This document shows, piece after piece, positions 3,976-63,658 of a stretch of DNA of 64,000 bases. This DNA comes from Mytilus trossulus. Lineage: Eukaryota. The stretch spans positions 77,066,001 to 77,130,000 of the forward strand of contig NC_086373.1 of NCBI RefSeq assembly GCF_036588685.1. Direction: 5' to 3'. The notes beneath the pieces were generated by a model. The model was not told the origin of the DNA, made no database searches, and saw only the letters and a list, made by a program, of their open reading frames with translations. Both the position numbers and the translations under genes were made by a program. Numbering within the stretch: the first letter of the stretch is position 1; each line of letters opens with the position of its first letter.

Positions 3976-5134
3976 CCATCTCCTTTGTCTTGGGTTGGGA
4001 ACCCCCGCTTTTTAAAATGGTTGGATCCGCCCCGGCATACCATTTAGCTAGCTAGAAATCAAACAAGGAAATTAACAGTGTAGGCAACTGTTTTGAATTT
4101 TAAAAAAAGCCTTTTACATATATAACAATGTTAAATTTTTTGTGCATTTATTTTTGCTTACCGTATTTTCAATAATGGACAAATTGCATGATTGAATATT
4201 GTAATTTAAGAAAAATCAGCATACATGTTATAAAATGGGAAGTGGAAACTGGGAATTTGACAAAGAGACAACAACCCAATCAAAGAGCAGACAACAGCCG
4301 AAGGTCACCTATGGGTCTTCAATGCAGTGAGAAGATTTCGGCACTGGTCTTCAGCTCATAAATATGTATCAGAAATGAAAATGAGATACAGCTTTCAGTT
4401 GAATTAATAAAAACCTCACAATAAGTTCTGAATATCAGAATATACAGTATTGCAAGATTCTCTCAAAATGTACACATAGAGCTGAAAAACTGTAAAATTA
4501 ATCATGCTTATTTAACATTAAAGTCCATGGAGTCCATCTAAATATGCATAGTCTCGTACACAGGAATATAAGTATGCAGTAGACATCAAGTTTCCAAAAA
4601 TAAGAGTATCTATGCCATTAATTTACGACAAGATTTTCAATCAAGTAATAATTTCGGTTAGTTTAAATATTTTGGAGGTTAGTATGACCTCCATTTTGGT
4701 GATGATATTTTCGTTTTAAAGTTGAGAAAATTGTTTGTACCAACAAAAATAAAAACACAAAGTCAATCTAGAATTAATTTTTTATCATTTTTTTATGTTT
4801 AGGTTGTCAGCAAGATGAAAAGGACAAGTATGCAGTTCAAAATTCAAAATGTGGATAAGCTGAGGTTCAAGGTCTTACCTTTGCAGATTTTCATATTTTG
4901 CATGAATGAATTCAAAGGTTATATGATGGACGGCAGAGAAAGAAAAAAAAAACTTTTCAATTATCCTGCTCCTGGATAAATGTAAAACATCTTGTTTTTC
5001 GGTAAGTTTTATGCTCTGTTTTGATAGTGTTAGTGACTTCATCTGTCCAGTCTTTCCTCTAAATTGTATCCTCTTTTAGTTTTTGGTGAGTGTTCGCCAT
5101 GAATTTCAGTAAGTAATTTGTGGATTTACATGTA

Positions 5135-6315: not shown

Positions 6316-7196
6316 TATATATATTATGTATACAACTTGGGAAAATACCCAAATGTTATAAAGAAGAACAAATTAATTAATTGTTATATGGTATTAGAAT
6401 AGGAAGATGTGGTATATTGCTTATTTGACAACCCTCCATCAGAGACCAAAGGATGTAGGCCTTTAGCAACTGATGACACTGGACAACCTTTAACAATCAG
6501 TAAAATCCATACCGCATAGCTATTTTTATGGAAAATCATATTATTGCTACATGTTTGCAAACAATTTTGTATAATACATTACTTTAGATTTTATTGGTTC
6601 TTTTTCAGAAGGATTGAAATTCACCACCTAGAATAAATGGAGAAAACATAAAAACAAGACCAGAATAAATTCAAAGACAAAAGTTGGATCAGTTATTATT
6701 TTCAACACTCAGTCAATGATTTGAAGTTCTTTTAAATACAAAAAAATATTGAAACCACAATATTGTCAAAGTTCTGTGCTGAATGACCAAAAAGTGGACT
6801 ATACCATCAAACAATGCTGGATGATAAGAAACTATTAATGTTTTGTGTTGAGGGATATTGTGAAAAAAAATAGATTTACTTAAATAGCTACTAGTACATG
6901 TAGTATATTAAGCCTATTAACAATAGAGTTTTTGTTGATTTCAAATGGGAAATAATTGTGTTTCAAGAAAGTATTCTATAATTCATGAATAAACATATAT
7001 TGATACTTACATTATCTGCTTTGTTGTTTAAAAGTTTAGTTTTGAACAGTTATAGAACAATATGCTAAATTAACATTTCCCAAGAAAAAAAGATATTCAA
7101 TTAAAAAGATTCATATTATAATAATTTACTACCAAATAGAATACATTGTAACATACACATTACTGTATATTTATATCTATATATTTACAATTAGAA

Positions 7197-7420
7197 TCCC
7201 ATAGGATTTTAATTTGTCCCATGGGATATTAAAAATCCCATGGGATAATAAAAATCCCATGGGATTTTTTTTGTCCCATGGGACAACAAATATCCCATGG
7301 GACTACAATTATCCCATGGGACAAAAAAAAATCCCATGGGATTTAACCAAAATCCCATGGGATAATGGTCAATCCCATGGGATTTTACCCTGTCCCATGG
7401 GATATTGAAAATCCCATGTT
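7197..7420. repeat. Phased array of the palindrome TCCCATGGGA with variable 9-11-nt spacers
   Basis: Perfect copies start at 7217, 7236, 7255, 7274, 7293, 7312, 7332, 7353, 7373 and 7393; degenerate copies at 7197 and 7412; period 19-21 bp. Confidence 0.95.
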
Positions 7421-8745
7421 TTTATAATTCAAATTGCAAAATAAATATGAAAAAAACAGTAGAAAACCAATGAAATTATTGAATCCCATGTAATTACGCA
7501 CATTTTGGTCATATACATGATATTGTAGCTTTTGTTTGAGGCGGCGGCGGATTTGCAAATGAGTGTTTTGCAAATTAAAAGTGTCCAGTGTTTACAGGCT
7601 TCTCATTTTGGACAGGCACATACATAATGTGGAGGGAGTTAAACATTTTTGCGAGCACCGATTCCTCCTTTTACCCCGGAAAATGGTGTAACACACACCA
7701 TAAGAACAGACTGAAAACTTTAAATGAAAAGAATTTTTCAGTAGAGATCAGCAAGAGGCACAAAGACCAAATAACATAGAAACCAAAGACACAAGACACA
7801 AATTATCGACATAAAAGTAGACGATGATACTAAAATCTAGTCGAAAGCCAATTACAACTAATAAATGAATAATAGTATCCAAGAACAAGAAAAAAATTTA
7901 TCAGTACACATTCAACAGCTTCAGTAAAAAAAATATCAAATATTTTGCACGGAATATATTATGAGGTGTTATGGTGTGAGATCCATTTAACAATAACGAT
8001 TCCTGTTGTAATGTAGATTTTTATTCATAATGACAGTTCTTTCGTAACAGAAGTTACTTTTGAATTGCGTTTTAACACCTTTTTTTTTTTTATATATATA
8101 TAATATATAAACAAATATCCCGAAACCTTCTTAGTACCTTTATCCTTTCCATTCATGATAAACCTGTATCCGAAGCAGGAAATGAAGTATCAAGTATATC
8201 TAATTTCCGTTAATCTCCCGCGTCCACTTCCGCTCATTTACATTAAAAATTTATTATTTTCTTCATGGTTGGATCATAGTATGGTGTCCGTGCATTTACC
8301 CGCTAAATCCAAAATGTATCAAATAAAGGCAACAGTAGTATGCTGCTGTTCAATAGTCATAATTCGATCAAACAATAATAAATCCGAGTAACAAACAAAG
8401 AACCTAGGGAAACACATCAATCATAAAAGGAAACTAACGACAACAGAGTTGGAGTATAATATATAGGAACGGGCTGCCATATTTCTGACTTGGTACAGGA
8501 CATTTTTACGGAAGGAACAACAGACATTGTTGCAGTACTAAATATTTATCAAAACTTTACTTTACAACAAAAAGATAACCAAAAACCGAAAAAGAGACGA
8601 ATAAACTTTTATTTGACACAAAAAGATGTCCAGCATCTACACATATGTTACAGGATATGTAGTGTATAATTTGTTAAAGTAGAGAGAAGTGAAGTGTTAC
8701 AAGGTTGATAATAATTTTGAAGTGTAAAAGTTTCCGTTGTTGGGG

Positions 8746-8751
8746 TATAAA
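8746..8751 (+). promoter_or_regulatory. Candidate TATA box for the transmembrane adaptor-like gene
   Basis: GGGG-TATAAA-TA about 70 bp upstream of the predicted ATG at 8820. Confidence 0.35.
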
Positions 8752-8819
8752 TATCGTCATCCGGATATAAATTATTGTTATACTCAATTACATAAAGTGA
8801 TGTGGATGATAAAGGTTAA

Positions 8820-11800
8820 ATGATGGGTAAGAAATCTAAATTTTTGTTTATCAAAATATTTTTAAAAGATTTCATAATTTATTGCATTTACGCTAGTTCA
8901 TCATAAGGCCGTCCTTGGATTATGTTACTTCATTATAAAAAGCGTTTAATAGCTAGCTGATATTTTTATTTAAAGGGCCATGTGAGCTTTTCTCACCACT
9001 TGGCGTTCGTCGTCGTCTGTTTTCGACCGTCGTTAACGTTCACAAAAATCGTCTTCTCTGTAACTACTTGGCCAAATTTTATCAAACTTGGCCATAGTCA
9101 TCATTTGGGTATCTGGTATATATTTTTTGTCCGAGACCAGGTTTGCTAACCGAGATGATCGACGTTGCTGAAAAAAGAACATATAGGCTAAACTGCCTAA
9201 AATTTTTGTCTTTTTTAAAGTTGTAATATCTGAACTGTCGTTTTATTTTTCCATCTATTTGGTCCTAGGTCTTTTATTAGTTTGTCCTGACTTTTTGTTT
9301 ACATTAATTGTCATCCTACCTTTTTTTCTCCAAGTTGCCCATCCTGCCTTTTTTAATCAAAACATCTGTGTTTCTTCAAATTGCATCCTAGCGTCCCCAC
9401 TCTTGAAAAATCAAATGGTAGCCCCTAAGTAAAACGTGAAAATATTTTAATAATGATATTCTAAATAAAATTGAGAATGGAAATGGGGAATGTGTCAAAG
9501 AGACAACAACCCGACCATAGAAAAAAACAACAACAGAAGGTCACCAACAGGTCTTCAATGTAGCGAGAAATGTCCGCGCTTAAATAACTACTTTCAGTTG
9601 TATGTTTTGTTTTTTTGTAAATTGACTCTGATTTTAGTGTAGCACTTTCATTATAATCGCCATCAGAAATGGTCAAAGCAAAAACCAGGGAAATCTATTT
9701 ATTGAAAAAGGCTCATGTCATTTTTGTGGTGCTGCATAAAACACTTCTTGTATATCTAGTATTTTTAAAGAAAAGTTTTAAGGTTGGACTTATATTTCAC
9801 ATTGAAAATGTAAAGAACTAGAGATTTTAATTTTCTGAAAAAAATGAATCTAAATGTTCTTTCATCTGTGTGTGAACCATTTTACTCTCATATTTGTCAA
9901 TCAAGATAACATAGCACTTTACACCTGATTTAATCACGCACAATAAAATATATATAAATATATGTCATCCCGGATTTAAGATAATTTGATGTAACAAAGT
10001 TTTCATGCATGTGATATAGTTACTTCCTCGTCAAAGCTAACTTTTAAACTTCCTTGTAAACATGTTAACTACCACATACCTATAAAAACATATCAAAATA
10101 ATAAAAGTAAAAAGTAAACGAATACAAATATCAAATATTTTGGCTCCAAGATTTCCTAATCAGTATGATCTTATAAATCTAGGCTGATTTTCCTTTAAAA
10201 AAAAGCTTGACAGTAATCGAATCAAAAACAGAACAATTATAATTATTAATTAACTCAATTGAAAGTCCTCGCAAAGAAAAGCATCAACACATAAAAACTG
10301 GGGTCACATTTGGGAAACATCAAGAAAAAAAATTATATAATTATTGCAATTATTCATGTATTTGTTCCAATGAACATTAGAACGAACAAACAAAATGTTT
10401 ACAGTTATCCATTGAAATTTTAATTACTTTTTTCGAAGGTAGGACTGGTGAGTTTACAGACTATGAAGAATTTTTCACCGCCAGAAAGGCAGGTATATTT
10501 GTTGGTGCTGCACTGTTTGCTGTGGCAGTTATAGTTGTAGTAGTTTCATCAGTATACCAAGCTATAGTCAGACGGTGAGTTTTTTTTTTTTATAGTGAAT
10601 ACACTAGTTATGTAAGAAAGGAAACCTCTTTTCACAACTAAAACATGACAAAGCTAACAAAAAACTATCCACAAATTGCTTAATTTGAACGCACTTGAAG
10701 AGTAATGACCAAGTTCATATCAATGTAATTTGTTTTAAATTGGTTTTGATGTGAAAAAAAAAATGTGAGCGAGCTAATATATTTCTTCTTTCTAAAAAAG
10801 TTTAAAAAAAAAAAAAAAAAGGAAAACATAGTTTCGGACAAAAAATAGACAAGACCTTAAACATAAAAACAGTACACACACTCTCCGTGTTTAATAATAG
10901 TCATTTCAAGAAGAAATCTGGTAATGTCTTAAACGAGACAAAAAGAACATATCTGGGTCATCTTTCACAAATATCCAGTATTAAACTGTGAAACAAACCA
11001 TGTTGAGTTCCATTAACTCTTATTATTACATTTGCACATTTTGTTTTAAGTTAGAAGGTTGCGTGTAAGCTTTCGACGAAATCATAATTGAAATCGCAAG
11101 CTTTTAAGTCTTCAATTGTGAGATATACTCATGTAGGCGATACTGGATGATTGCTGCTACATGAAAATGGAGAGTTCGCAATATGAAAATTAAAGGTTAT
11201 CTCTTTTGTCTTAATAAGATTGAGCTCTAAGTCAATTTATATATGTCTCTCAAGCTTTGAAGCAGATCATTTATCTTTAACTGTGTTTTCCTTATGATTT
11301 CAAGTACAACTTTGGAATAGGCGCGATCAATAAGCTCGCCAAACTTTGAATTATTTGATGCGAGGACATCATCCATGTAGCGTGAAGTTAAATATAATTA
11401 TAGATTGTTATTCTCCTTAAGAACCTATACCAATAATTTAACAATAAGAAGATGTGATATGATTGCCAATGAGAGAACTCTTCACTAAAGACCAAATGAC
11501 ACACACCCGCCTAATTTTAATAACGGAAAAACTATGTTTTTGGTTACTGAGTAACACACATGTCATGAGTTTCAAAACTTCGAATATACACTCTAACTTC
11601 CAACCCAGATGTTCTCTTGGTGCATTATATACACTCAAATGAGTTTGAAGCCTTTTGTCAAAAGATAAGAACAAGTGTGTATTCATGACTGATGATGGCC
11701 ATCTTAAATAATGTGGTATAATACTGTATAATGTAACCGTCTCAAAGCTATACCAACCAGATAGGATGTCCTTTTTAAAGATTAGACCTAATAACCAACT

Positions 11801-12437
11801 ATAGGGGTATTGACTACACTTTTATTTTTATTTTATTTTAAATCTGATGTATTGTACCAAGTTAAAATAAGTTCTTGATCTCTATTCTGTATATTCTAGA
11901 TGTTGTGCCTCAAAGAAAGACAATCCAAAAAAGATTGAAGAAGCTGTTCCAACGATTGCCGAAGAAACAAGACGTTCCTTCGAAAACCCTGTTTACTCTC
12001 AAGATATCAAAGAAAAGCAAGATATCAATGTACGAATTTCAACAGCGGATGGATATCTGTCCATTGAAAATCACGAATATGAAAATGCAACTCATCTAAA
12101 AAAGAGAACTGATTCGGACGCAGATAGTGACATAGATTATGAAAATCTCAAAGACAAGAAAATTGATCCTCCGAAGGAAAGAAAGAAGCCTCCAATGAAA
12201 AGCAAAACGACTAAAAAGGAGAAAGCAAACATACCAATAGATAATGATATTAATGGTGTCGAAGAAACAATTGAAACTTACGACAGGCCTCAGGCACCAA
12301 AGTCAATAAAGAAAAGGACGTTAGAACGTGTTGACGACGAGGACGAAGATGCACCCGACTATGATGTACCAAAAACATTTACAGAAGACGACGAGGAAAC
12401 ACAAGACTATGATGTTCCAAAATCATTTACTGAATAA
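8820..12437 (+). CDS. Single-pass membrane protein with a Tyr-motif-rich cytoplasmic tail (transmembrane adaptor-like), ~226 aa; exons 8820-8826, 10439-10574, 11900-12437
   Basis: GT-AG introns with matching phases (1, then 2). Translation: MMGRTGEFTDYEEFFTARK-AGIFVGAALFAVAVIVVVVSSVYQAIV-RRCC...FENPVY...YENA...YENL...YDRP...YDVP...YDVPKSFTE*. Exons 2-3 are well supported; the 7-nt first coding exon is less certain. Confidence 0.7.
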
Positions 12438-12834
12438 AAATTAGCGATACATGTACATGTAGAAATCATGACATCATCATTGAAATTTAAGTGTTTTCAC
12501 CACCATGAAATATACTTGTTGTTTTTCATTCAAAGCTATCTTTATTCCTTTGTAAGTTAACAAATCAAGTTTATACAAGTTTTACAGTTTCTGCTGATTC
12601 ATGTGTACTTAAACACTTCTAAGAATGTTCTGCAAAACATTTTATGTTCGTTAAAATAGGTGTGAATGAAAAATCGTCACTTGCTATAAATGTACCAGGC
12701 GCTCATATGTGAAAAAATTGAACTGTCTTTATCTTTCGATACCGTAATATTTTTTTTCAGTATCATCATAATCAATGAAATGATGTTAAGGTTCACAGTT
12801 TATTGGCATTTCTGAAAAACACAGTGTGTCAGTT

Positions 12835-13339
12835 AAGAGATAACTGTATTGTATTTGAAGCTTTAAGGACGTCCATCGGTAGTTTTACTGTCGCAAATTT
12901 AGTTTACCTGGCGACGCGGATGGACGTCCGCAAAGCTTCAAATACAATACAGTTATCTCTATTCTAATGCAAAACAAGTTCAATATTAAATTTCAATCAT
13001 TATTTCAGTGTAAAATCTTCATTAAAGAAAATTCCGCGAAAAAATGTTATCTTCTTTGGTCCCTACAATAGGTGACGTCATAGTTATGCTTCCGGCGTCA
13101 AACATAAACACCGGGCGTTTTATGGCTTCTGTGCCGCTTCAAAATGTAATAAAATTTGATAAAAAGGAGATTTTTAGGCGCAACAAGTGAGTTTTTTTGT
13201 TTATTATTGTAGAAATATCATGTCAATACATTCCGAAATTCAAAATGTCGGCTTCCCTAGTTACAGACAAGGAGATAGAGAATTTTACGCTTGCTGTCAT
13301 CCAATCAGAACAATGGTTACAAAATAATTGCATTAGAAT
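12835..13339. mobile_element. Non-autonomous element with a terminal hairpin and an internal inverted repeat (ATTCTAATGCAA...TTGCATTAGAAT)
   Basis: A closely similar second copy lies at ~57717-58257, inside the Penelope-like element. The copy here has lost part of the hairpin loop. Confidence 0.8.
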
Positions 13340-13678: not shown

Positions 13679-16600
13679 CTAATTTTCGGTGCATTCCCGT
13701 TTCGCTAAATATTCTTTGATTCTTGGATAACCTGCTATTCTCTGTCGATGAGCTAACAACTTGGGAAACTTGTCCAATAAATTTGTATCCTTTTGCAAAA
13801 CGCTGGTCAAACCTTCGTATACAGCTACATCAGCCATTGTAAGCTGAAATAAATAAAATGTTTACATTTGTTTAAATAAAAAAAAATACACGCTAAAAAC
13901 ACATACAGATATATACGGAAGCCCTGGAGTGCCATGCAAAAAAAAAAATACGATATATGTTAGATTTTTATCATGCAGTTTTGTCTATTATATTATGTTG
14001 TATCATTATTCTTTAACCTGTAGGAAGTGTAAAATGAACTTTTCTAAGATACAGTTTTCATAGTTGACAAAAGATGATCAATTCATCCTTAACATGAAAA
14101 CGGAAGTTATACATCACGTCGAAAAAAGTAGAAAAAATACTCTATCATTTACTTCTTCTTACCGTAGAACCAACAAAGAATCCATCTCCACCTTTGTTCT
14201 GTTTTAACCATTCCTCAAAAGTTGCAAGCTTATCAGGAACATATTCATTCAACAATTTCCGAAGCTTTTCCTCCTTAAATTAAAAAAATTTCAATGAACT
14301 TTCTCTATGTATAATAACTGGTAAATAATTGAGTCGGTGATTTCATTACCACACCATTATTTTACTTCTAAACTGAATGCGTTATTTGATACAAAAAAAA
14401 AATGATTTGAAAGTTTGCCTGAAATCTTTAATAATACAAACGGAGATATTGTAGATAGTACGATCCTTATAAAATACTTTCGATAATAGATGGATATGTT
14501 TTTGCATTTACGACAAAAGAATATCAGAAAAATATCTAATTCAAAAAAATTGAATGAAAATCTCATAATTTGTTGTTTGATCTGTAATTTATTGTGTTAT
14601 ATGAATTGTGGATTGCTATTTGTTGGTTAAGTAATGATCAATACTTTCTGTATTGTGTTTGGCGGATTGTTGTTTGTTTAATTAGGGTTGGATAATCTTT
14701 AGTTTCCTGTGCTGTTTTTTTAACCAATGTTGTATGTTGGGTTACTGTTAGTGTTGATCAAACTTAATGATATATGTGTTGTGTCAAGTTTGTGGATTGT
14801 TTGTTGGACTAGTGTTGTGTTTTGTGGATGGCTTGTTGTACTAGTGTTGTGTTTTGTGGATGGATGTTGAAATAGTGTTGCATTTTGTGGATTTTTTGTT
14901 GTACTAGTGTTGCATTTTGTGGATTGTTTGTTGTATTAGTGTTGTGTACTGTGGATTGTTTTGTTGTACTAGTGTTGTGTACTGTGGATTGTTTTGTTGT
15001 ACTAGTGTTGTGTTTTTTGGATTTTTTGTTGTACTAGTCTTGTGGTTTGTGAATTGTTTGTTGTACTAGTGTTGTGTTTTGTGGATGGTTTGTTGTACTA
15101 GTGTTGTGTTTTGTGTTTTGTTTGTTATTATAGTGTTGCGTATTGTGGATGGTTTGTTGTACTAGTGTTGTGTTTTGTGGATGGTTTGTTGTACTAGTGT
15201 TGTGTACTGTGGATTGTTTTGTTGTACTAGTGTTGGTCGATCTTGAGTTTCTGTGCTGCTTTTTAATGATTGTTGTTTGTTGGGTAAGTGTTGGTTGATC
15301 TTTAGTCATCTGTGTTATATTTTTGTGGATTGTTGTTTGTTGGTTTAGCTGGTTGATATTTAGTGTTTCTATGATTTGGTTTGTTGATTATTGTTTGTTT
15401 AAAACAATATACAAAAATCGAGTTACATATTTTATTATACTTAAATTTGAGAATGGAAATGGGGAATGTGCCAAAGAGACAACAACCCGACCATAGAAAA
15501 GACAACTGCAGAAGGTCACCAAAAGGTCTTCAATGTAGGCTAGCGAGAAATTCCCGCATACTTGCATTTACTGAACGCATTTGAATTTTATCTTTGATAG
15601 CCAAGAGTTGTAATCATTGGCTAGCGAAAATGCTGAAATAGAGCAACTGCGTGTTTTTTTTAAATTTATATGAAAATATATCGATTTCAGGTTAATCCAT
15701 CAATGATTTATTTAGTCTCTATAGAAGCAATGAATCACTGACTACCTCACCTGAACCAATTATTAGAAAAGTTGACAAAATCCTAAAACATTGACCTCAC
15801 GAATATTAATTTCTTTTCCGGTTGTATCTGTTGGTTTTCCTTTAAAATGATGAGGGCGATGTGTAATAGAATATAATGTATAGCTTACCTTTTTGTCAGA
15901 ATCTTTCTCGAGAAAATAGCTGTAAAATTGTTCTGTCAGGTCATTAGCGGTGTAAACAATCTGGTCCACCTGGGCCTGATCCCAGTCAGATTTACCTGCT
16001 AGTCCTAAAGTAAAAGGTTATAATTATATATCAATTATCTGAGACATGTACACATAACACTGGTCTAACAAGCCAAATGCAAGTATGAATATTTTGTAGT
16101 ATAATAATAGTTAAAAATGTACTGCAGAGATATACTTTGCTGATTAACTCATATTTGATATATTATTGCAAAATTAACGTGTTTATGTAAAAATATTCAT
16201 CGAAGGACAGACATCCTGCAGTGTATTATAAAAAAGAGGATATGATATGATTGCCAATGAGACAACTCTCCACAAGAGACCAAAATGACACTATTTGTTT
16301 GTTTCCGAAAGGTTATAACTTTCATTTCGATCAATAACAAAAAACTGAATTAGCCGTTATTATTTCAATTTCTGTTTTGAGTCATTCTCAGCAGATGCAT
16401 GATATATCATTTCCTGTTTAATAGGATGTATAATAAGTCGATCTATTTTAAATATAAAATATCTGATTTTGGTATGCTCATGTAGGTGTAAGTAACTTAA
16501 GATAGATCTAAATTGTAATCATATTGAATACAATTATTCATCAGTTCTCTCTTTTCCCCCCAGTTTTCTGACAAACTATAGTTATTTGGTTCAGTAACAT

Positions 16601-17981
16601 TTTCTGTTCACTTTCCAGTAGTTTTGTGATTTTGTTCTTAACATTTATAGCGTAAACTGCTACCCTATCGCGTATTCAGAAGAAGGAATTGCTGTGTCGT
16701 CTAACTTACCACAAGTTCTTGCAATAAACCGTGCAATGGCCAGGCTTTGTGTAAGATATTGTCCTTTGTACTCTAGCATTGGCAACTGACCATTAGGAAA
16801 AGCTGAATAATAAAAATATTTAATATCATAGCCAGGAAGAAAAAAAGCAGAAAACAAACAATAAAATATTGACTAGTTGTTCCTTATGCCAATAATGGTC
16901 ACTCAAAAGAATCCAGGCTGATTAGGTCCGGTAGAAGCCGGTTCTATACAAGTTTCTTAATTGTTCACACATATAATGATAGTACATATGTATAGCATCA
17001 GTCAGTGGTGTCCAGAATATCAAACACAAGTCACAAATAAAATTGTTTTTATAAAGGTTTAATGGCTCAATTTTTACAACAATGTGTATATTCATGATCT
17101 TTTCTGTAAATCACCTAAAATGTGAAAGAGGGGTGCATTTGTACATGTGTATATTGGGGACCATTTATCATAACTGTTTTATCAACTGATACTTTGCACG
17201 CTTTTTTTAAAATGAAATTGTAAAATCTACACGTTGAAGTAAGTTAAAAATATAAAGAGTGAAACATTTCGAATAAAAATAATAATGCCTGTTAAAAGGT
17301 TCTAGATGTTAATGAAGATTTGCTTGCCTCTCACATTATCTTGTCTAAGTTATAATAGACTTAAATCTTCTACCGCGTATTTGTTCGAAATACCTCCAAG
17401 ACATGGATGGTCATGATGGAGGCCAAGAAAAAATAAACCGAGCATTCCAATTTCAAATGACCTTGTATTAATTTTATCCCTATAACAGAATTTGACTTTA
17501 TGCATTCAACCGTTTTAAAGTTATTGATTAATCACCTCTTGTGGGAATTTTCTATAGGAATAAACAATTTGGGAAACAAGCCACGAAACCTTCAATGAGA
17601 TAGTGCAAGTGTTCTTTACTGCAAAGAGAAAATGTAACGAACGAGGAATCGTATTCAAATTTTATTCGCCGCGAGATTGTGAGTGTTGGCTCGGTTGTTG
17701 ATCCCCTTTACTATTTACCACGAGATTTAATGTACATCATTAAAATTTTAGTGTTTGCTCCCCCCTTTTCCCCCATACATCTTCGGATCAATCATTTTAT
17801 CCTTAAGTTATATCAGAATCTGTGCATTTTTAAAATAAATATACTTACTCTTTTTCTTTTCTGGAAATTCTGATCCTGGAATACGTATGTCGTCAAACTT
17901 AATTCCAGCAGCGACACACATAATTCTAGTTAGTTCAGCTCTACCACGAACAGGAAAATAATACAATTTATAATCGGCCAT
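13679..17981 (-). CDS. GST: Glutathione S-transferase, sigma class, 205 aa; exons (minus strand) 17981-17849, 16802-16710, 16004-15889, 14273-14163, 13843-13679
   Basis: Spliced translation MADYKLYYFPVRGRAELTRI...TFPNGQLPMLEYKGQYLTQSLAIARFIARTCGLAGKSDWDQAQVD...GFFVGSTLTMADVAVYE...FPKLLAHRQRI...RECTEN*. All introns are GT-AG with consistent phases; the N-terminal Tyr and the GQLP/QS glutathione-site motifs are present. Confidence 0.93.
14780..15240. repeat. Minisatellite, ~32-bp unit (TACTAGTGTTGTGTTTTGTGGATGGTTTGTTG), in GST intron 3
   Basis: More than a dozen tandem copies with degenerate flanks. Confidence 0.92.
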
Positions 17982-18231: not shown

Positions 18232-21200
18232 CACTAGGGTAAAGCTGCATTCACGGTCATCCCAAGATGTCGGACGAAAAATTAGGTCAGTATTTTTATT
18301 GTCTGTTAAGTTGTTTCTACATCATTTTCTTTACAAAGCATACATTGGTACGATGTAAATTTATAAAAGATTCACACGGAAGTCACAAATCTCTTCTGAG
18401 GAACGTGTGTAGAACGGGAAATTGGATTTGAAAAATTCGCTAAGATGACCGTAAATCATCTTTAAAATATTTTCAAGATGACCGTAACATATAATAAGGA
18501 TGACCGTTATTGGTAAAATGATGACCGTAATTTCGAAAGGATGACCGTACCTTTCATAGTATAAACGTCATTCATTTCTAAGAAATATCCGTATTTGTAT
18601 TACCTTTTTTGTATCAAGTAATTAATCGTGTTGGTGTAAGACGTATTTATAAGACAACATAAGTTTAAACAATATTTATTCAGATAATTCATCATGATAC
18701 GATATTATACAACGGAAATAATATTCAGGATTCAGAAACAAGCAATTTGTTTTTACAAATCTGTCTCCTTTACAAAAATAATAGTGATGAAGCATTGACA
18801 TCAAGGGTTAAAACGTTTACTTTTAATAATATATGTCTGCACCAAACTAAATAAAAGACTATTTTGTTCATCTGAGAGTACCGTTGATCCAAAAAGTTTT
18901 AGTGTTAATTTGGACAGGAAGAACTGAAACAGGATCCATTAGTTCTTTTCTTAAATTAGTATATATAGGACAAGATAACAGGAAGTGAGAATTTGTTTCT
19001 ACATCACCACAACGACAATTTGGAGAGTCTACTAAGTTACGAAGGAAAAGGTGAGAATTCAATGAGCTTAAATCCACTCTTAAGAGAGCATGAAGAATTT
19101 GACCAAAACGATGTCCTATATAATAATACGCTGGGATCTTACTATTTTGTGTACTAATTTGTTTTTTGAATAATGATAAAGATTCACATTTTCTTATGCT
19201 TAAGTTAAGAGTGTTCCATAGTTTTGTTGTTGCAGGGATGAAATATTCAGAATATAAACGGGTCCGTGTGTTGACTTGTGAAATATTATTTCTCTGTCTT
19301 GTATTATGATCATGCCTACTGCCTACTGAATCAGGCAATAAGTCTCTTAAATACTCTGAAGTTTTATTATTCAAAATTTTGTGATAATGAGTTAGTCTGT
19401 GATTGCGTCGTCTTTCAGATAATTTTTCCCATCGAGTTTCAACATATAAATTTTTTATACTGGTAAGTTTAGTACCCCCGTGACGATACGCACTGCGTCA
19501 AGCTGAATACTTTCAAGTTTAGCAATCAAATTGTGATTTTGAGAGTCCCAAACGACATCGGCATATGCAAGAATTGGGCGAACAAATGATATGTATTTTT
19601 TTTCAAGTCAAAATCTATCAAGAACATTTTTCTCATTATATTTATTCTTTTGTAAGATTTAGAAACTATATATTCAATATGGTCGTTCCAGGATCCGTTG
19701 TTAGAAAAAAAGACACCCAGATGTTTGTGTTTACTTACTGTTTGTAGCTCTTGGGTGTTCATATTTAATGGAGGATGAAATGGTCTATTTTTGTTTTTGA
19801 AATTATCATACTTTCAGTTTTTTGGGCATTAAAATTAACAAACCATTTTTTTGACCAATATTATGACAAATCTTATCTAGATCGTCATTAAAATTTTAGC
19901 TGTTTCTGTTGGATTGTCAAACATAATATATAATGAAGTGTCATTTGCGAATAGCTTAATTTGAGCTTGAATGTCTTCTACAATATCGTTTATAAATATA
20001 AAAAAAAAATAGAGGGCCTAGAATGGACCCTTGTGGGACGCCTGCATTTACAGGTAACCATTCGGAACTTGAACCGTTAATAACAACCCGCTGGACTCTA
20101 ATTGTAAGATAATTTTCAAACCACCTTAGTAAAGAACCCGGTATGCCCGCTTGTTGAAGTTTAAATAGCAGTCCCTTATGCCAGACTCGATCAAACGCTT
20201 TACCTATATAACAGAATACTACCGGCCTTATTTCTTTACCGCTATCTAAAAGCCTTCCCAAAATCATTCGAAATGTTAATTAATTGATTAACTGCTGAAT
20301 CCCCCGTGTAAAGCCCGACTGATTTTTCGTTAAAATATTATTGCGCATAAAGTGATTGTAAACATTTTTATATACACATCGTTCCATTCACTTTGATATT
20401 ACACTCAACAAGGAAATAGGTCTATAGTTTTTAACGTCATTCGGTTTACGATTTTTATAAACTGGGGTAACATTTGCTCTTTTCCATTGATCTGGAAAAG
20501 TAGACGTACTTAACCATGTTAACGATAAGTTAAATAGTTTACATAGTGGATACTTTAAAACAGAAGATGCTTCTTTTAAGATCTTTTAACAATTTGGGAC
20601 TTCTGAGGTCTGGGCAAGAAGCTTTTGTGGGATTAACAATTTTTAATATATCTTCAACTTCAGTAACAGTAAGTTCTATATAACTAATGTCATCACTAAT
20701 ATTATGAAGTTCTTCAGGTAACACAGCACTTGGATCATCAATATTTGATTGGGAAGAAAAAAATCGATTAAATTCATTTGCCTTTTCGATTTCATCAAAT
20801 ATTTTAAAAGTTGTTATTAACCATTAATGGGGGTACATTTGCGTCGTTTGTTTTTAATCCGGATATTTGTTTAACCGTTTTCCACCAGTAATTAGTAATG
20901 GACGGGTTACTGTTCATGATTTTTTTGATTAAATTGTTGTTATAATCATCCTTCGATTTTCTTATTAAACTAGTAACTTCATTTCGTATTTTCTTAAATT
21001 TTGACCACTCCGAAGGGTTACATGTATTATATTTTTTTGCCTTTCTGTGGATTCTATTTTTTGTCCTTATCTTTTTTTTAACACCATTTGTTAGCCATGG
21101 AGGTTCATTTTTGGGAACAGTTATTATTTTTTTTGGAATACATTTTTCAGCAGCTTCTATGATAGTTTTTGTTATTTCGGTTGTAAACTGTTCAACGTTA

Positions 21201-22051
21201 TTTAAGTTAATTACGGAATCCCAATTTTTTTCAGATTAAATGTTACGATATATGTCATAGTCTCCTCGATCATATAGCCAAATTTTCCGCTTAAAAGTTT
21301 TTTGACGACATTTTGGAAAGTTCAAAAGACTGATTATAGGACAGTGGAAACGTATTTGGTCTAATTAAGGTGGCCCGACTCCACAGTAAGTTATTATGTG
21401 AGCATCATTTGTTATAAAAAGGTCTAACAATGATGACGACGATTCAGTAAAATGAGTAGGTTCATCTATCATTTGAGTAAGACTAAATTGGCTTAACAAA
21501 GGTGTAATTTTTGAAGACAAAATTATCCTAAAGGTAGACAAAAATAAGACGTGCTTCAAATACATGGTTCGTCATATGTAGCATCCAACTACAAGCCAAA
21601 TAGTTAAAAAGAACTAACCGAGCCCCTATTGCGACAAACTCAACAAAAACAATGTATACAAATATGGATAGTTCTTTCACTTGACGGTCATCCTTTTAAA
21701 TTTAGTCATTCTTTATAAATTACGATCATCCTTAACAATTTACGGTCATCTTTTAACCAATTACGGTCAGCCTTGTTATGAATCGCTAATCCTATTACGG
21801 TCATCTCGATTTCGATTTATGGTCATCCTCGCGAATTTTTCAAATCCAAATTCCCGTTTTATACACGCTCCTCGGTAGAGATTTGTGACTTCCGTGTGAA
21901 TCTTTTATATATTTACATCGTATCAAAGTATGCTTTGTAAAGAAAATGATGTAGAAACACCTTAACAGACAATAAAAATACTGACCTAATTTTTCATCCG
22001 ACATCTTGGGATGACCGTGAATGCAGTTACGGTCATCAGCTTTACCCCAGT
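18232..22051. mobile_element. DNA element with long (~230-bp) terminal inverted repeats and subterminal GATGACCGTA repeats, interrupted by a LINE
   Basis: 18232-18455 (CACTAGGGTAAAGCTGCATTCACGGTCATCCCAAGATGTCGG...) is the reverse complement of ~21815-22051 (...CCGACATCTTGGGATGACCGTGAATGCAG...AGCTTTACCCCAGTG). No clear TSD. Confidence 0.8.
18655..21530 (-). mobile_element. Degenerate, 5'-truncated LINE (CR1/L2 group) with endonuclease end, RT and C-terminal fragments
   Basis: ORF fragments EPTHFTESSSSLLDLFIT, KAFDRVWHKGLLFKL, GVPQGSILGPLFF, HKHLGVFF, CRCGDVETNSHFLLSCP, separated by frameshifts and stops. Confidence 0.88.
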
Positions 22052-24845: not shown

Positions 24846-25666
24846 ATCAATTAGTCCGTTATTTTTCTCAATTGAATCGTTTAACATTTTAAATTCGAGT
24901 GGGAGGCATTTGAACTTTGGTGGAAAGTGGTCTTATTGGCAACCATACCCATCTCCTTATTTTTACATATGGTATGCACCTATGAGACAGTTATCCAACG
25001 ACACAAAAAAAATCTAGAGGTGAGAATACGACCTTCAAGATACAATTTTGATTCACTAATGTCAAAATCATCATGCATAGCCTTCGTTGTTTGTTTTTTG
25101 GTTCAGTTTGTATCCATTTGTTATTGTCTTTCTATCTTTTTGTGATTCTTCCTGTTTGTTTTTATATTAGTATATATGTAGTAGTGTTACTATAGCATTT
25201 GTTGTAGTGTTGCCAAATTGGGTGCATGCTTATTTATATACAAAAAATGTATAATGAAATAAAATATCAAATAATACTGGCATGGATTTTAAACTATTGG
25301 TATCACGTTTCCTTACTTTGATGGTGATTACAATCTTTTAAATCAGCACATCTATTATGTTTTTTCAAACCTTCCACAACGTATCCACAATAACCCTGAC
25401 TATTGAATATTATCAGTCATTAATATCATTATATTCGTTAATGACATGCAATTAATTAAAAATGTACCTGTCATATTTCGAAGTCCCATTGCACCTTTGG
25501 CTTATTCGTATTTATTAGGTTTGAAAAATTCATTAAAATATGAAAAGATATTTGGCAGATATGTATTCTATATTATAAAATAGATTCTAAATAAACCAGA
25601 AGCTCTGTGGTTAGGTTGGTTACTTATGAAATCGGAAGGCCAGTCTGCCACCATTGGAATTCCATT

Positions 25667-28665
25667 ATGTCCGACGAAACTCGCAGACTCACACGTAGTT
25701 TATCATTTATTAAAGAAAACACAACTCAGATAGAAAAGATTTTAGACAAACTAATAGAGGATGGAATCATTGGTATGGATGAACGTTCACAAATCCTTGC
25801 AAATCCACTTTTAGAAAACCAGCTACATTCGGTCATTGAAAAGATCATCAGAAAGCAGGCTTATCAGTCTTTTTTGAGCGCGCTGAAAACTACAGGGAAC
25901 AACCATGTAGTGGATAAAATAATCGGATTGCATTTTCCAAAAGGTATTAATTCAAATTTCATTTCAATAATGCTATTTATTTCAAAATGTGTTCATACAT
26001 ATTTACAGCGTATCTGCTTGTTTATGCACAGTGCTAACCTATATGCATTTGACAATGGCTAATTGTTCGATTCTAACAGTATAAGAAACAAGACAGCATT
26101 TTATTCTGTTTTATTTTCCCATCTTTAATTGTACGTGGTTTTTTTTCGAACAATGGCGTGTCATTAATATTGATTTTATTTTAATCAAATGTTTTTTAAC
26201 GCAGATTATTTTCTACATTTCTGCAAGAGGTTATATGAGATATATCGTCCTTGATTTCTGTAACATTTTTTGTCTATTTTTTTTTCTTTCGATTGTATTG
26301 TTGTCTCTGTCTTTTGATTTATTTTGGTTATTTCTTTAGATCAAAAGGACAATCAAGGTATGAACAGAGAAAAAACGTACACTGTGAACTCGGTATGTAT
26401 TATATAAATATACAATTTATAAATACGTATATTGTTTTGTTAAAATTCTCTGTAATTAAAATTTTGAATTCATTTGAATCAAGAATCCTATCTCGATCAT
26501 GCGTGATTTTTTTGTATTGATTTTCCTCTACTATTTATCCTTTTGGGTTTTATCTTTTCTGTAACGCTTGCAATAAGTTTGGAACTTTTTAACTTTTTGG
26601 CCTCGAACATTAATTGTCGAAATACAGTAAATTTGGTACATCTGAATGACGCCTCCGGGTGCGTGAATTTCTCGCTACATTGAATACATGTTGGTTACCT
26701 TCTCTGTTGTTTTTTTCTATGGTCGGGTTGTTGTCTCTTTGACACATTCCCCATTTCCATTCTCAATTTTACATGTAATTTTTATGTTTTAAAATGAACA
26801 TTTTAACTTTACCAACGTTCATCAATAGATGAGTTTTAAAGGAAAACGTATTTAACTGTTCAAAATAAATAAACTTTTACAGGATAATCTCTCAAGTAGC
26901 AACTTTGTTGTTCTTATCATATGTTTGCCCACATATGTCAACTGAACATTGGGTTGACAATTTGCATACGCATAGGTATTCACACATTTATGGTTGATTT
27001 TAATGCTTAACAGTTTAGTGGCAACTATTTAATCCAGGCATGATTCCACTATTATGAGTGTTTAAAGGGAAACTTCGCAAACAAATCAAAAATTGATATT
27101 ATGTTCATTCTGAATAAAATGCTCAAATTCATAGATATTAAGGTTTTATTCCGCTAGATAAGCGATCACCATCGACTTTGAATTAAGAGTATCAATTCTC
27201 TGCGTTTGGCATTTTGATTTTGTCTTCTTTCCCGATTAATAACAACGACATGTCTACAAACCACAAAGCAACAAAGCTACAGTAAAAGATGTAGTCGTAA
27301 TTGCGTGTCGATATCTTGTTAATCGTACGGTTGTTTTATCCAACTAACTAACTTGATACGGAAAATATTTTTATTTTTTTCAAATAACCATGGTCTGTTG
27401 TTTTTAAACTGTTAATATTGGAATTAGGTAAAAAGTCAAAGTTGAAATCATAAATAAGTGTTCCGTAAAAATTGTTTTCGAAAATCTAATTTGTTCATAA
27501 TTCTATAAAGTAATAAACTTTTTTCAAATAAATTCTGATCTTCCCTCATCTGATCACCAGCATAGCTAAAGGTATTACTTCCAAAGGTATTGTGAGGGAT
27601 ATGAGGTGACACGTCCAGGTATTCAAGCGATTTCCTGTCGGGCTTGCAAGTTCATGCATCGTTTCACTTCCGCAGGTACACAGTGTACACGGCCGATAAC
27701 TTATAACTTTCCATTTTGAACTATCAGATGTATAATATACAACTCTGTCTTACTTGTCATTACTAAAACTCATACGCTTGTTTATAAATAACATTTCTGG
27801 TCTAAAGAATATTATTCATAAGAATATAAATAATACCCAAGAAATAAGATTTGATGAAATTAAAATCTATTTAAATATTTTTTTCCAAGGGTGAATTTGG
27901 GAAAATGTAATATATACTCATTGTCAATAGTGAAGGACAGATAGGAACATACCAGAAATATTAATACATGCTGTTTGTTATGACTAATATTGTTTCTTTT
28001 ACCAGATTGAAGAGGAGGGAGAAGAAAAGTCACATTATGAACAATATGTCAAGGAGAAAACATTAGAGGAACTGAAATTGGAAAATGACAGACTGAAAAC
28101 TCAGCAATCAATAGTTAGAGAACAACTGAACGAAAAGTACAAGAAAATTCAGGAGCTGAAAATCGAAGTTCGGAACTATAAAAGACAAAACACAGAATTA
28201 AACGAAAAGTTACAATCATATGAAGAATTGCAAGTTAGAATGGAAGGTATCGAAGAGGAACTTCAAGATAAGGATAAAATGAACAGAATAATAGAAATTG
28301 CACTTTGTGAGCGTAGCGAGGAGATTGATCGATTGCAGAGACAATGTGAAGAATTAAAAGTTGAGAGCGAAGAAAAATCTGAACAAATCTCTTATTTGTC
28401 AGGACAGATGGAACTCTTGAAAATAGAATTGGGAAAAGCTAGTGAAGATCGACATAGACTAAAACAAACTATCATTGACATGTCTAATAGTATGGAAGAA
28501 AAATTCGTGGACATGATGAGCGCATTAAACGATCTGAAGGCATACAAACAAGCGCAATGTGAAGTTACGACACCGCGCAACTCAAGTAGTTCTCGATACC
28601 AGTATGGCAGAAGAGGGCAACCATTGGTACTCGCAAAAACAAAATATCGAACGCAGCACAAATAA
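25667..28665 (+). CDS. Death-fold (CARD-like) domain plus coiled-coil protein, ~329 aa; exons 25667-25943, 26340-26392, 28006-28665
   Basis: Exon 1 has a CARD-like helical pattern (IEKILDKLIEDGII...QIL...AYQSFLSALKTTGNNHVV). Intron phases 1 and 0 join in frame to a heptad-rich E/K/Q/L exon. AATAAA at 28813. Confidence 0.75.
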
Positions 28666-33239: not shown

Positions 33240-35300
33240 ATACCACAAAAACAAATAACACATAAAATGAAATTGCCTTGGATCACAGACCAACTAAGAA
33301 TCAAGATAAATAAAACTAAACGTCTGCACAAAAAAATCAAAGAAAAATCATCATCTGCTAATTAGATACAAACACATGAAAAAAACATTGCAGGCAGATA
33401 TGCGTTCAGCCTATTGGCATTATATTGAAAACATGATCCTAGACCTCCCAATTGAAGAACTTGGAACCACCAACAAAAAGCACACACCAAAAATATTGTT
33501 CTCATATATCAAGAGCATGAGAAATGATAATTCAGGTGTAGCTGCACTAAAAAAGGATGGATTGCTCGTAACAAACACCAAAGATAAGGCAAACAAACAC
33601 CAAAGATAAGGCAAACATCCTCAACCAGCAATTTCAAAAGGCATTCTCTACTGAATCATCTGCAGATCCAATACCAGTAAAAAACTTATCATCACATCCA
33701 CAAATGAATGAAATTAAAATATCAGAAAAGGGCGTCAACAAACTTCTTCACAACATTAATCCGAATAAAGCCACAGGCCCTGATGAACTATGTGGGAAGG
33801 TATTAAAGGAAATGAAAGATCATCTAAGTCCTATCATCACACTCATCTTTCAAAAACCTATTAACACTCATAAAATACCTACAGACTGGAAACATGCAAA
33901 TGTCTGTCCTGCATTCAAAAAAGGCGACAAAAACAATGCCATAAATTACAGGCCAATTTCACTAACATGTATTCTTTGCAAAATAATGGAGCATATCATA
34001 ACTAGTCAAGTAATGGAACATCTTGAAAAAAACAATATTTTATATGATTTACAACATGGCTTCCGATCAAAACGCCCTTGTGAGACACAACTATTATCTT
34101 TCATTCAGGACCTTGCAAGAGACAACAATATTAACATACAAACTGATGTCGTTGTGATGGACTTTGCCAAAGCTTTTGACAAAGTCCCTCACAAAAGATT
34201 ACTTTACAAATTAAAATACTACGGCATAGACAATAATACCTTGGAATGGATTGGTGACTTTTTACACAACCGTACACAAACAGTCATGCTAGATGGAGAA
34301 CAATAAAAAAAAATGGGGTAACATCTGGGGTGCCACAAGGCACTGTCCTTGGCCCAATTTTATTCCTCATTTACATAAACGATTTCCCAGAATATTTACA
34401 TCACAGCACCTCAAGATTTTTTGCCGATGACAGCTTCATCTATAGAAACATCAAAAACACAGATGATGCTGCCAAACTACAACAGGATTTAAATTCAGCG
34501 GCACAATGGGAAAAAGACTGGTTAATGTCATTCCATCTAGACAAATGTTCCATACTAAGAATTACACAAAAAAAAAGAAACCAGTCAACCATGACTATAT
34601 CCTGCATGGTCACATCCACCAAACTGAAACAGCTACAAAATATTTAGGCTTAACCATCCAATCTGATCTAAAATGGAATAAACACATCAATAACGTAATA
34701 GCTAATGCAAACAGACAACTGAATTTTCTCAAACGTAACCTTAAAGTTTCATCCCAAAAAATCAAAGAAAGGGCATACATGTCATTAGTTAGACCTAAGC
34801 TTGAGTACAGTTCTTGCGTCTGGGACCCTCACACCAAAAGTCAAATCAACCAAATTGAGATGGTCCAACGCAGAGCTGCTCGCTACACATGTAATAGATA
34901 TCACAATACCAGCTCTGTCTCAAACATGCTTGATCACCTACAGTGGCCTACATTAGAACTGAGACGTATACAAACAAGACTAGTGGTATTCTATAAGATC
35001 ATACACCAACACATAGCAATTTACCCTAAAGATTTTCTTGTTAAATCAGACAGTAGAACAAGATATAAACATACAAACCACTTTAAACAAATTCAAACAA
35101 ATAAAGATTCATACAAGTTTTCATTTTATCCACATACAATAGTACAATGGAACCTACTTCCTACATCAGCAATCCTTTGTACAACAGTCGACGGCTTCAA
35201 AGAGCAGATTTCTATATCTGCTCTTTCACAAATATTCTAAAAAATGCATAACATGTACATAGTTTTAACAAGAAATATACAAAGGATAACAATCCACAAA
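33240..35300 (+). mobile_element. 5'-truncated LINE ORF2 (RT) pseudogene
   Basis: KATGPD, NYRPISLTCILCKIMEH, QHGFR, DFAKAFDKVPH, GVPQGTVLGP, FADD, KYLG and YMSLVRPKLEY motifs in three to four frameshifted ORFs. Confidence 0.9.
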
Positions 35301-63523: not shown

Positions 63524-63658
63524 TATTGTTTTGGATTGACAAATAAACTAGAATGGAGAGTGATTTGTTTATATGGCTAGCTCGTTATCTTTGCTTTGAT
63601 AATAAGATTTAATATACGGGTACCTCAAGGTACATTATATGATAAACGAATGGGCTAT

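What the first reader, a model, noticed from the sequence alone, without database searches (positions are those of the whole stretch)
8820..12437. LAT/NTAL/PAG-like transmembrane adaptor architecture in an invertebrate
Seen: about 19 residues precede one hydrophobic segment, with no signal peptide and an in-frame TAA directly before the ATG. After the TM come RRCC and a charged, low-complexity tail with FENPVY, YLSI, YENA, YENL, YDRP and two YDVP motifs. Known: FxNPxY binds PTB domains and drives endocytosis, YxN binds Grb2 SH2, YDxP binds Nck/Crk/Abl-type SH2, and juxtamembrane cysteines are palmitoylated in vertebrate raft adaptors. Inference: a convergent or remote signalling adaptor, possibly in hemocytes. 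The ORF track shows only its last 80 aa.
Basis: partly seen in the sequence, partly recalled or inferred. Interest (0 to 1): 0.7.

Follow-up and report, generated by a model that had tools for sequence, protein, structure and literature searches.

The report
Mussel LAT-like membrane signalling scaffold
Mussels have a real, spliced gene for a small membrane protein with almost no outside part and a floppy inside tail full of conserved tyrosine docking motifs, which likely works as a signalling scaffold like the LAT-type adaptors of vertebrate immune cells but probably arose separately.

Summary
Three coding exons (8820-8826, 10439-10574, 11900-12437) give a 226-aa protein, letter-identical to a RefSeq Mytilus model. 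Contigs of public runs join 8826 to 10439 in 5 of 8 runs laid (4 studies), and no listed contig joins another exon there. An in-frame stop precedes the ATG, so no ectodomain is added. Three divergent unnamed relatives (44-60% identical) start at the same place.

The protein has 19 N-terminal residues, one membrane helix with GxxxG, then RCC and a tail with no predicted fold. Six of its 7 tail tyrosines sit in FxNPxY, YxN or YDxP motifs. Motif positions are 96% conserved against 34% elsewhere; YLSI is not conserved.

It meets the structural definition of a transmembrane adaptor (TRAP) but is not a detectable LAT/NTAL/PAG homologue: no Pfam hit over cut-off, 3 exons against 11, and only 12 related clusters found. 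Best reading: a lineage-restricted, probably convergent phosphotyrosine scaffold recruiting Grb2 and Crk/Nck, with an endocytic FxNPxY. Phosphorylation, binding, palmitoylation and hemocyte expression are untested.

The parts
8276..8819 (+). 5' untranslated part of exon 1. A long form from 8276 has 8 upstream ATGs and 14 in-frame stops; a short form probably starts near 8800.
   Evidence: Contigs of X3 and X1 cover 8276-8825; those of X5, X9 and X4 begin at 8802-8804. ATGs and stops. Contigs cannot show a true start.
8746..8772 (+). Two TATAAAT boxes (8746, 8766); the second lies about 35 nt before the 5' ends of the short contigs. Candidate core promoter.
   Evidence: function inferred.
8817..8819 (+). 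In-frame TAA directly before the start codon
8820..8826 (+). Coding part of exon 1 (two Met codons plus one base; phase-1 intron follows). The second ATG (8823) has the better start context and matches the start of the divergent relatives.
   Evidence: the start-context rule is recalled.
10439..10574 (+). Exon 2: short N-terminal segment, membrane helix (about residues 20-46, G21xxxG25, no charged residue), first basic residues
11900..12437 (+). Exon 3 coding part: CC pair and the whole tail (residues 49-226) with FxNPxY, two YxN and three YDxP, to the stop codon
11979..11996 (+). FENPVY (F75-Y80), predicted PTB/FERM-binding endocytic or recycling motif; FENPxY invariant in 10 of 10 aligned sequences
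   Evidence: binding rule recalled
12078..12149 (+). YEN-A (Y108) and YEN-L (Y128), 20 residues apart; predicted Grb2-SH2 sites
   Evidence: YxN as Grb2 motif from PMC2196071
12279..12419 (+). YDRP (Y175), YDVP (Y202), YDVP (Y218); predicted Crk/Nck/Abl-type SH2 sites
   Evidence: the same YDVP repeats occur in this genome's Cas-like protein
12438..12856 (+). 3' untranslated region, at least this long
   Evidence: Contigs of X3 and X12 run on to 12856; the end was not determined.

Best explanation
This is a spliced three-exon mussel gene for a 226-residue protein with one membrane helix, only 19 residues before it and a tail of conserved tyrosine motifs, which likely acts as a LAT-like membrane scaffold that is phosphorylated by Src/Syk/Abl-type kinases and then predicted to recruit Grb2 and Crk/Nck. 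Shown: gene structure, splicing, no ectodomain, motif content and motif conservation. Predicted: N-out/C-in insertion without a signal peptide, and a disordered tail. Inferred steps: (1) C49/C50 are palmitoylated and steer it to membrane microdomains; (2) a neighbouring receptor activates a tyrosine kinase, which phosphorylates the tyrosines that have acidic residues upstream; (3) pY108 and pY128 (YEN) bind Grb2 and feed Ras/ERK; (4) pY175, pY202 and pY218 (YDxP) bind Crk/Nck and feed Rac or N-WASP-Arp2/3 actin assembly, with several sites allowing clustering; (5) FENPVY binds PTB/FERM adaptors that internalise or recycle it. It most likely arose independently of vertebrate TRAPs, possibly from a receptor tail that lost its ectodomain (the intron before the membrane exon is phase 1).
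For: Joints in 5 of 8 runs, 4 studies. Annotated models in five Mytilus species are 225-230 aa. 9 of 9 full-length sequences examined have one hydrophobic segment near the N terminus, CC at 48-53, GxxxG, a negative N flank and a positive C flank. AlphaFold gives a short helix 11-17, a long helix 19-49 and coil for the rest (pTM 0.17). No Pfam family over cut-off for any of 10 aligned members. Across four relatives 44-60% identical to the query, 17 motif-defining positions are 96% conserved against 34% for the 159 other tail positions. In YxN the middle residue varies (E, V, I) while Y and N stay; P0042 has four YDVP. 29 of 34 tail tyrosines in five divergent sequences fall in the three motif classes. 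The genome has Grb2-type SH2 exons and a Syk-type SH2 exon among 54 SH2 matches. A Cas-like protein of the same genome uses the same YDVP repeats. The ESM Atlas's nearest clusters are vaccinia A36 (0.90), SCIMP (0.87), LIME1 (0.86) and GAPT (0.83); these are leads only. The TRAP definition in PMC3342071 and PMC4861716 fits.
Against: There is no experimental evidence of phosphorylation, binding, palmitoylation, localisation or tissue. YxN alone is weakly enriched (4.3% of shuffles) and labile: Y128 is F in P0035, Y108 is missing in P0042, so two of four divergent relatives keep only one tail YxN. YDRP is YDSP in some relatives. The cysteines are CC, not CxxC. Nck was not identified in this genome, and the candidate Crk SH2 half-exon did not classify. 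Atlas scores are 0.90 or below with 152 or fewer shared features, in the range that shuffled proteins reach 4-10% of the time. The short N-terminal segment and GxxxG are conserved, more than an inert stub would need. PMC9333988 notes no functional evidence for Grb2 sites upstream of Nck sites in any integral membrane protein, which is the order found here.
Confidence: 0.7

Rival explanations
1. It is the signalling and endocytic subunit of a two-part receptor: the conserved N-terminal segment and GxxxG helix pair with a ligand-binding chain (works like FcR-gamma/DAP12, or like amnionless with cubilin), rather than acting as a free scaffold. This is compatible with the same tail chemistry.
For: The N-terminal 19 residues vary at 2 of 19 and the helix at 3 of 27 positions among six Mytilus sequences, against 12 of 40 in a linker. 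GxxxG in 9 of 9. Weak Amnionless matches over the helix and FxNPxY in 5 of 10 members (best E 0.0004, below cut-off).
Against: There is no charged residue in the helix, no outside cysteine and no ITAM. No partner was identified; the homodimer fold was not run. Short exon-flank constraints could explain part of the conservation.
Confidence: 0.14
2. It is mainly a trafficking protein: FxNPxY and the tyrosine motifs act unphosphorylated as sorting signals, and SH2 signalling is incidental.
For: The block around FENPVY is the least variable (0 of 11 positions among six Mytilus sequences; invariant FENPxY in 10 of 10). YDVP is not far from YxxPhi sorting signals (recalled).
Against: Y+2 Asn and Y+1 Asp/Y+3 Pro are what is conserved, which matches SH2 rules and not the YxxPhi rule. 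Acidic residues precede the tyrosines. The same repeats occur in the Cas-like protein.
Confidence: 0.08
3. It pushes or fuses membranes through actin, like vaccinia A36 or the reovirus fusogen p14, which use Nck and Grb2 sites in a short disordered tail.
For: A36 is the top Atlas hit (0.90). A36 and p14 use both adaptors with about 20-residue spacing (PMC9333988); here Y108-Y128 is 20 and Y202-Y218 is 16. All divergent full-length relatives begin Met-Gly.
Against: There is no sequence similarity to either protein. The order of sites is reversed. The N terminus fails the recalled myristoylation pattern in 3 of 4 lineages, and Gly is nearly forced by the splice and start context.
Confidence: 0.05
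4. The model is a truncated read of an ordinary receptor whose ectodomain exons lie further upstream.
For: The intron before the membrane exon is phase 1, as in modular receptors (general knowledge). Some table rows were cut (102 joints; 318 loose ends). One X1 contig continues 385 nt unlike the window beyond 10336.
Against: All listed spliced contigs reaching 10439 come from the 8826 donor, and contigs run unbroken across it. There are 14 in-frame stops upstream. Three divergent relatives start at the same residue. No longer relative was found among 1,249 candidates (weak evidence). The odd X1 contig follows the intron for 103 nt, so it is not a splice onto 10439.
Confidence: 0.03

Closest known systems
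Vertebrate transmembrane adaptor proteins (TRAPs): LAT, NTAL/LAT2, PAG/Cbp, LIME, SCIMP, GAPT, SIT
   Same: Tiny ectodomain (PAG 16 aa, NTAL 6, LAT 4; PMC3342071, PMC2196071), one helix, juxtamembrane cysteines, a non-enzymatic tail with several tyrosine motifs, YxN sites about 20 residues apart, and similar size (LAT 233 aa).
   Different: No sequence similarity over threshold (SIT 16.2 bits against a cut-off of 27.6). 3 coding exons against 11 in LAT/NTAL. CC instead of CxxC. Only 1-2 conserved YxN against five in NTAL. It adds an FxNPxY and three Cas-like YDxP sites, and has a conserved GxxxG. LAT and NTAL themselves share little sequence (PMC3342071), so homology is not excluded.
Vaccinia A36 (OPG164) and reovirus p14
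   Same: Single-pass protein with a disordered tail that combines Nck-type and Grb2-type tyrosines (PMC9333988); A36 is the top Atlas look-alike.
   Different: This is a spliced cellular gene with no homology to either. Its predicted Grb2 sites lie before the predicted Nck/Crk sites, the reverse of A36, p14 and YL126.
p130Cas/BCAR1 substrate domain; nephrin tail
   Same: Repeated YDxP/YDVP sites; the genome's own Cas-like protein has such repeats. Nephrin spacing of 17-24 residues between Nck sites (PMC9333988) resembles 16-27 here.
   Different: Cas is cytosolic with folded domains and nephrin has a large ectodomain (recalled). Here only three sites sit on a bare membrane anchor.
LDL-receptor family, amnionless and Draper/CED-1 tails
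   Same: FxNPxY close to the membrane (consensus recalled); weak Amnionless Pfam match.
   Different: No ectodomain; the match is below cut-off and covers only the helix and the motif.

Membership tests
TRAP class (architecture-defined) | Short extracellular segment of a few to about 20 residues | tested here: met
   19 residues (18 from the second Met); splicing and relatives agree
TRAP class (architecture-defined) | Single transmembrane segment | tested here: met
   One hydrophobic region in 9 of 9 full-length sequences; one long helix in the model
TRAP class (architecture-defined) | N-out/C-in topology without a signal peptide | tested here: inconclusive
   Charge bias fits in 9 of 9 (N flank -1 to -2, C flank +1 to +5); prediction only, no topology predictor or experiment
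TRAP class (architecture-defined) | Long tail without an enzymatic or folded domain | tested here: met
   No Pfam hit over cut-off, no PDB relative, coil in AlphaFold with a 10-sequence alignment
TRAP class (architecture-defined) | Several tyrosine-based docking motifs | tested here: met
   6 of 7 tail tyrosines in conserved FxNPxY, YxN or YDxP
TRAP class (architecture-defined) | Juxtamembrane palmitoylation motif (usually CxxC; optional, LAX lacks it) | tested here: inconclusive
   A conserved CC pair, not CxxC; palmitoylation itself not testable
TRAP class (architecture-defined) | Phosphorylation by Src/Syk kinases and binding of SH2 proteins after receptor triggering | not testable with these tools
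   Only the presence of Syk-type and Grb2-type SH2 exons in the genome was shown
TRAP class (architecture-defined) | Plasma-membrane or raft localisation; expression in immune cells | not testable with these tools
   Run tissues are not on record
LAT/NTAL gene family (homology) | Sequence similarity to LAT or LAT2 | tested here: not met
   No LAT, LAT2 or PAG Pfam family at E up to 1 for 10 members; the profile search returns 12 clusters, none named as vertebrate
LAT/NTAL gene family (homology) | Shared 11-exon organisation (PMC2196071) | tested here: not met
   Three coding exons, whole tail in one exon
SIT family (PF15330) | Pfam score over 27.6 bits | tested here: not met
   Best 16.2 bits, E 0.016, 2 of 10 members
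ITAM subunits (DAP12, FcR-gamma, CD3-zeta) | Charged residue in the helix and a two-tyrosine ITAM (features recalled) | tested here: not met
   None in residues 20-46; YLSI is followed by YENA, not YxxL/I
SUN-domain proteins (RefSeq label of P0001) | C-terminal SUN domain | tested here: not met
   No SUN family hit for P0001 at E up to 1; the label looks like a mis-annotation

The most novel reading that the evidence does not exclude
Mussels independently invented a LAT-like scaffold that sits downstream of Syk/Src in their blood cells and couples pathogen receptors to both Grb2-ERK and Nck/Crk-actin outputs for phagocytosis. It would be a host membrane protein carrying both kinds of site, in the Grb2-before-Nck order for which PMC9333988 found no functional example.
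Probability: 0.25. Interest if true: 0.78.

Novelty: new variant of a known kind. Interest (0 to 1): 0.52.

Why it matters
TRAPs are studied as organisers of vertebrate immunoreceptor signalling, and the SIT family is listed among novel vertebrate immune proteins (PMC5620054, one passage). Oyster hemocytes have an ITAM receptor-Syk-ERK pathway (PMC6994640); the passages I saw name no scaffold between Syk and ERK, and the text has 0 occurrences of Grb2 or BLNK. A bivalve TRAP-like protein would be a concrete, single-copy, testable candidate for that layer, and a case of convergence on the same design from short linear motifs. Because such proteins evolve fast and escape homology searches, it also suggests that invertebrate TRAP-like families should be sought by architecture. 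The limits: the family is detectable only in mussels and unnamed relatives, its function is inferred from motifs, and the design itself is well known.

Tried and rejected
Longer relatives with an ectodomain: 0 of 1,249 candidates (weak evidence). Paralogues in the own genome: 1 match among 18 tail candidates and 1 of 1 for exon 2, both the gene itself. The PF15330 search rang nowhere, controls included, so it is uninformative. The DYDVPK pattern gave 42 matches: 2 in this gene, most others one repeated string in pairs about 6 kb apart (probably LTRs, not examined). Of five distinct ones fetched, one is a Cas-like exon and four lie in open frames of 41 aa or less. P0043 (4,417 aa repeat protein) was dropped as a compositional hit. 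N-terminally short relatives (P0003-P0010, P0018) look like gene calls that start inside or run into the intron; they were not counted as full-length. No PDB relative (one hit at E 0.8). The Atlas structure search gave TM scores of 0.28 or less by query. No fold search was run because the model is mostly coil. Classifying half-SH2 exons as Crk (L034) or Grb2 (L030) failed, since SHP2 ranked first; the second-half exon L047 did classify as Grb2. A homodimer fold of the helix was not obtained: no verdict. No RNA holder is on record as RNA; the runs are 'RNA?' and are judged RNA-derived only from GT..AG joints. Contig depth was not used to rank expression. N-myristoylation was rejected as unlikely (recalled pattern fails in 3 of 4 lineages). 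A hemITAM-like reading of DGYLSI (consensus recalled) was kept only as a lead, since the motif is missing from 3 of 4 divergent relatives. Nine contig differences in exon 3 were 4 silent and 5 missense, none in a motif tyrosine; too few for a selection test. Upstream 40 kb: frames of 110 aa or more were listed and two were scanned (a reverse transcriptase, a GPCR); short exons were not examined. Literature: six accession or locus terms gave 0 papers; nine topical searches listed no title describing an invertebrate TRAP. PMC2192828 returned no passages, so the YDxP-Crk/Nck rule is recalled. Supplementary tables were not searched and may list the gene in hemocyte data. Three look-ups of earlier findings returned nothing.
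Full report
What was checked. The region was read and the proposed exons were spliced by coordinates in a script. Exons 8820-8826, 10439-10574 and 11900-12437 have GT..AG introns and give 226 aa. A TAA lies in frame directly before the first ATG, and 13 more in-frame stops lie upstream to 8277. The product is letter-identical to P0017, a RefSeq model labelled Mytilus trossulus, so the window is from a Mytilus mussel.

Is it transcribed this way? No run is on record as RNA, but contigs of eight runs were laid and show GT..AG joints. The 8826>10439 joint is in 5 of 8 runs from 4 studies. In the other three, the listed contigs begin inside exon 2 (two runs) or have 7 unplaced letters (one run). 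The 10574>11900 joint is in 4 of 4 runs where it could be seen. Contigs of X3 and X5 run unbroken through all three exons. Three runs begin at 8802-8804, about 35 nt after a TATAAAT at 8766; two begin at 8276. Contigs cannot fix a start site. Against completeness: 102 joint rows and 318 loose-end rows were cut, and one X1 contig follows intron 1 at 90% identity and then leaves the window's sequence.

Relatives. Single-sequence and profile searches of 5.8 billion proteins gave 11 and 12 clusters; the exhaustive search of 1.84 billion representatives gave 5 hits, one of them compositional. Named members are from five Mytilus species, 225-230 aa, annotated as uncharacterised or wrongly as SUN2-like. 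One M. galloprovincialis model has a different six-residue start and is still short. Three unnamed full-length lineages (P0035, P0011, P0042; 60, 44 and 45% identical) start within one residue of the same place, which rules out an ectodomain as a general feature. Their organisms are not given; other mussels is my guess. No named oyster, scallop or vertebrate protein appeared. The gene is single-copy as far as searched.

Anatomy. All 9 full-length sequences examined have one hydrophobic region, GxxxG at its start, CC just after it, a negative N flank and a positive C flank, which predicts N-out/C-in insertion without a signal peptide. AlphaFold with a 10-sequence alignment gives helices 11-17 and 19-49 and coil elsewhere, at low confidence. 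No Pfam family passes its cut-off; the weak hits are Amnionless and SIT. In the tail, motif-defining positions are 96% conserved against 34% for the rest. FENPxY and the two C-terminal DYDVP repeats are invariant in 10 of 10 aligned sequences, apart from a one-residue insertion in P0042. YxN keeps Y and N while the middle residue changes, but sites come and go: Y128 is F in P0035 and Y108 is absent in P0042. YLSI is missing from 3 of 4 divergent relatives. P0042 carries four YDVP. Shuffles put the YDxP excess far beyond chance and YxN and NPxY at 3-4% each, with the caveat that the motifs were picked after inspection.

Mechanism. By established SH2 rules (YxN for Grb2, read in PMC2196071 and PMC3342071; YDxP for Crk/Nck and FxNPxY for PTB/FERM adaptors, recalled), the tail is most simply a multivalent docking strip. 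The genome supplies Grb2-type and Syk-type SH2 domains, and its Cas-like protein uses the same YDVP repeats; Nck and Crk were not firmly identified. The spacing of paired sites (20 and 16 residues) matches the roughly 20 residues noted for LAT, nephrin, EGFR and A36 (PMC9333988, section 14). The model is therefore: palmitoylated anchor, phosphorylation by a receptor-activated Src/Syk/Abl kinase, Grb2 to ERK, Crk/Nck to actin, FxNPxY for uptake or recycling. All of these steps are inferred. The conserved N-terminal segment and GxxxG leave open that it is a subunit paired with a ligand-binding chain.

Comparison. It works like a TRAP by every structural criterion given in PMC3342071 and PMC4861716 (passages read); NTAL itself was also found by a database search on such criteria. 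It is not shown to be a member of the LAT/NTAL, PAG or SIT families: no similarity over threshold, three exons against eleven, CC for CxxC, and a mix of motifs closer to A36 plus Cas. The Atlas places it near A36, SCIMP, LIME1 and GAPT at lead-level scores. Since LAT and NTAL share little sequence themselves, remote homology cannot be excluded; I put it near 10%.

Papers seen. Passages: PMC5549309, PMC10199209, PMC7655920, PMC6994640, PMC4861716, PMC2196071, PMC3342071, PMC5620054. Passages and section 14: PMC9333988. No passages returned: PMC2192828. All others were seen as search listings only, and no supplements were read. Ten searches found no paper on this gene or on an invertebrate TRAP; the library lacks most subscription journals.

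Verdict. The feature is real and the architecture is as described. It is an annotated but uncharacterised, lineage-restricted family that probably converged on the TRAP design: a new variant of a known kind. Confidence in the scaffold mechanism is 0.7; the hemocyte and immune role is untested. Interest 0.52.

Noticed in passing
window about 2170-2265, 4803-5001, 6610-6848 (+): A separate spliced transcript upstream on the same strand: joint 2265>4803 in 2 of 4 runs and 5001>6610 in 4 of 4. Its longest Met-started frame is about 54 aa, so it is probably non-coding. Contigs stop at 6848; no listed joint links it to the adaptor gene.
   Followed up: partly
window 10336-10508: One contig of run X1 follows intron 1 into exon 2 at 90% identity, with exon changes matching the M. 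edulis-type protein, and continues 385 nt unlike the window; the same run also has a near-identical spliced form. Probably an unspliced copy of another allele; unexplained.
   Followed up: partly
window 15763-16872 (-): Exons of a glutathione S-transferase gene, convergent with the adaptor gene (GST_N over cut-off); a useful synteny marker.
   Followed up: partly
window 25595-26062 and 27988-28665 (+): A CARD-domain exon (E 1.2e-05) and a coiled-coil exon, probably one gene.
   Followed up: partly
window 49895-52105 and 61358-63547 (-): Two similar long open frames (736 and 729 aa) with a MACPF domain and a C-terminal hydrophobic segment; they look like tandem MPEG1/perforin-2 genes (name recalled).
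   Followed up: partly
G000:C7:77.52-77.57 Mb (L030, L032, L035, L047, L048): At least two near-identical Grb2-type SH2 genes and a third similar exon in a cluster, with an insertion in the first half of the domain: a local Grb2-like expansion.
   Followed up: partly
G000:C11:33.98-34.43 Mb (L018, L022, L023, L024 and further matches): A cluster of at least eight related SH2 exons, an expanded SH2 gene family of unknown kind.
   Followed up: no
L052:3-1544 (-): Exon of a p130Cas-like gene with many YDxP repeats and the Serine_rich domain.
   Followed up: yes
P0001 (RefSeq XP_071143457.1): The M. edulis orthologue is named 'SUN domain-containing protein 2-like' but has no SUN domain.
   Followed up: yes
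ESM Atlas: Unnamed arthropod clusters (285 aa, 134 members, score 0.85; 288 aa, 75 members, 0.89) resemble this protein by features; they could be further invertebrate adaptors of this design. Sequences not available here.
   Followed up: no
window 7200-7420; 18868-21235; 33081-35240; 45973-46665; 55502-56942: A short tandem repeat array, and broken reverse-transcriptase-like retroelement frames (RNase H-like match for 45973-46665).
   Followed up: no
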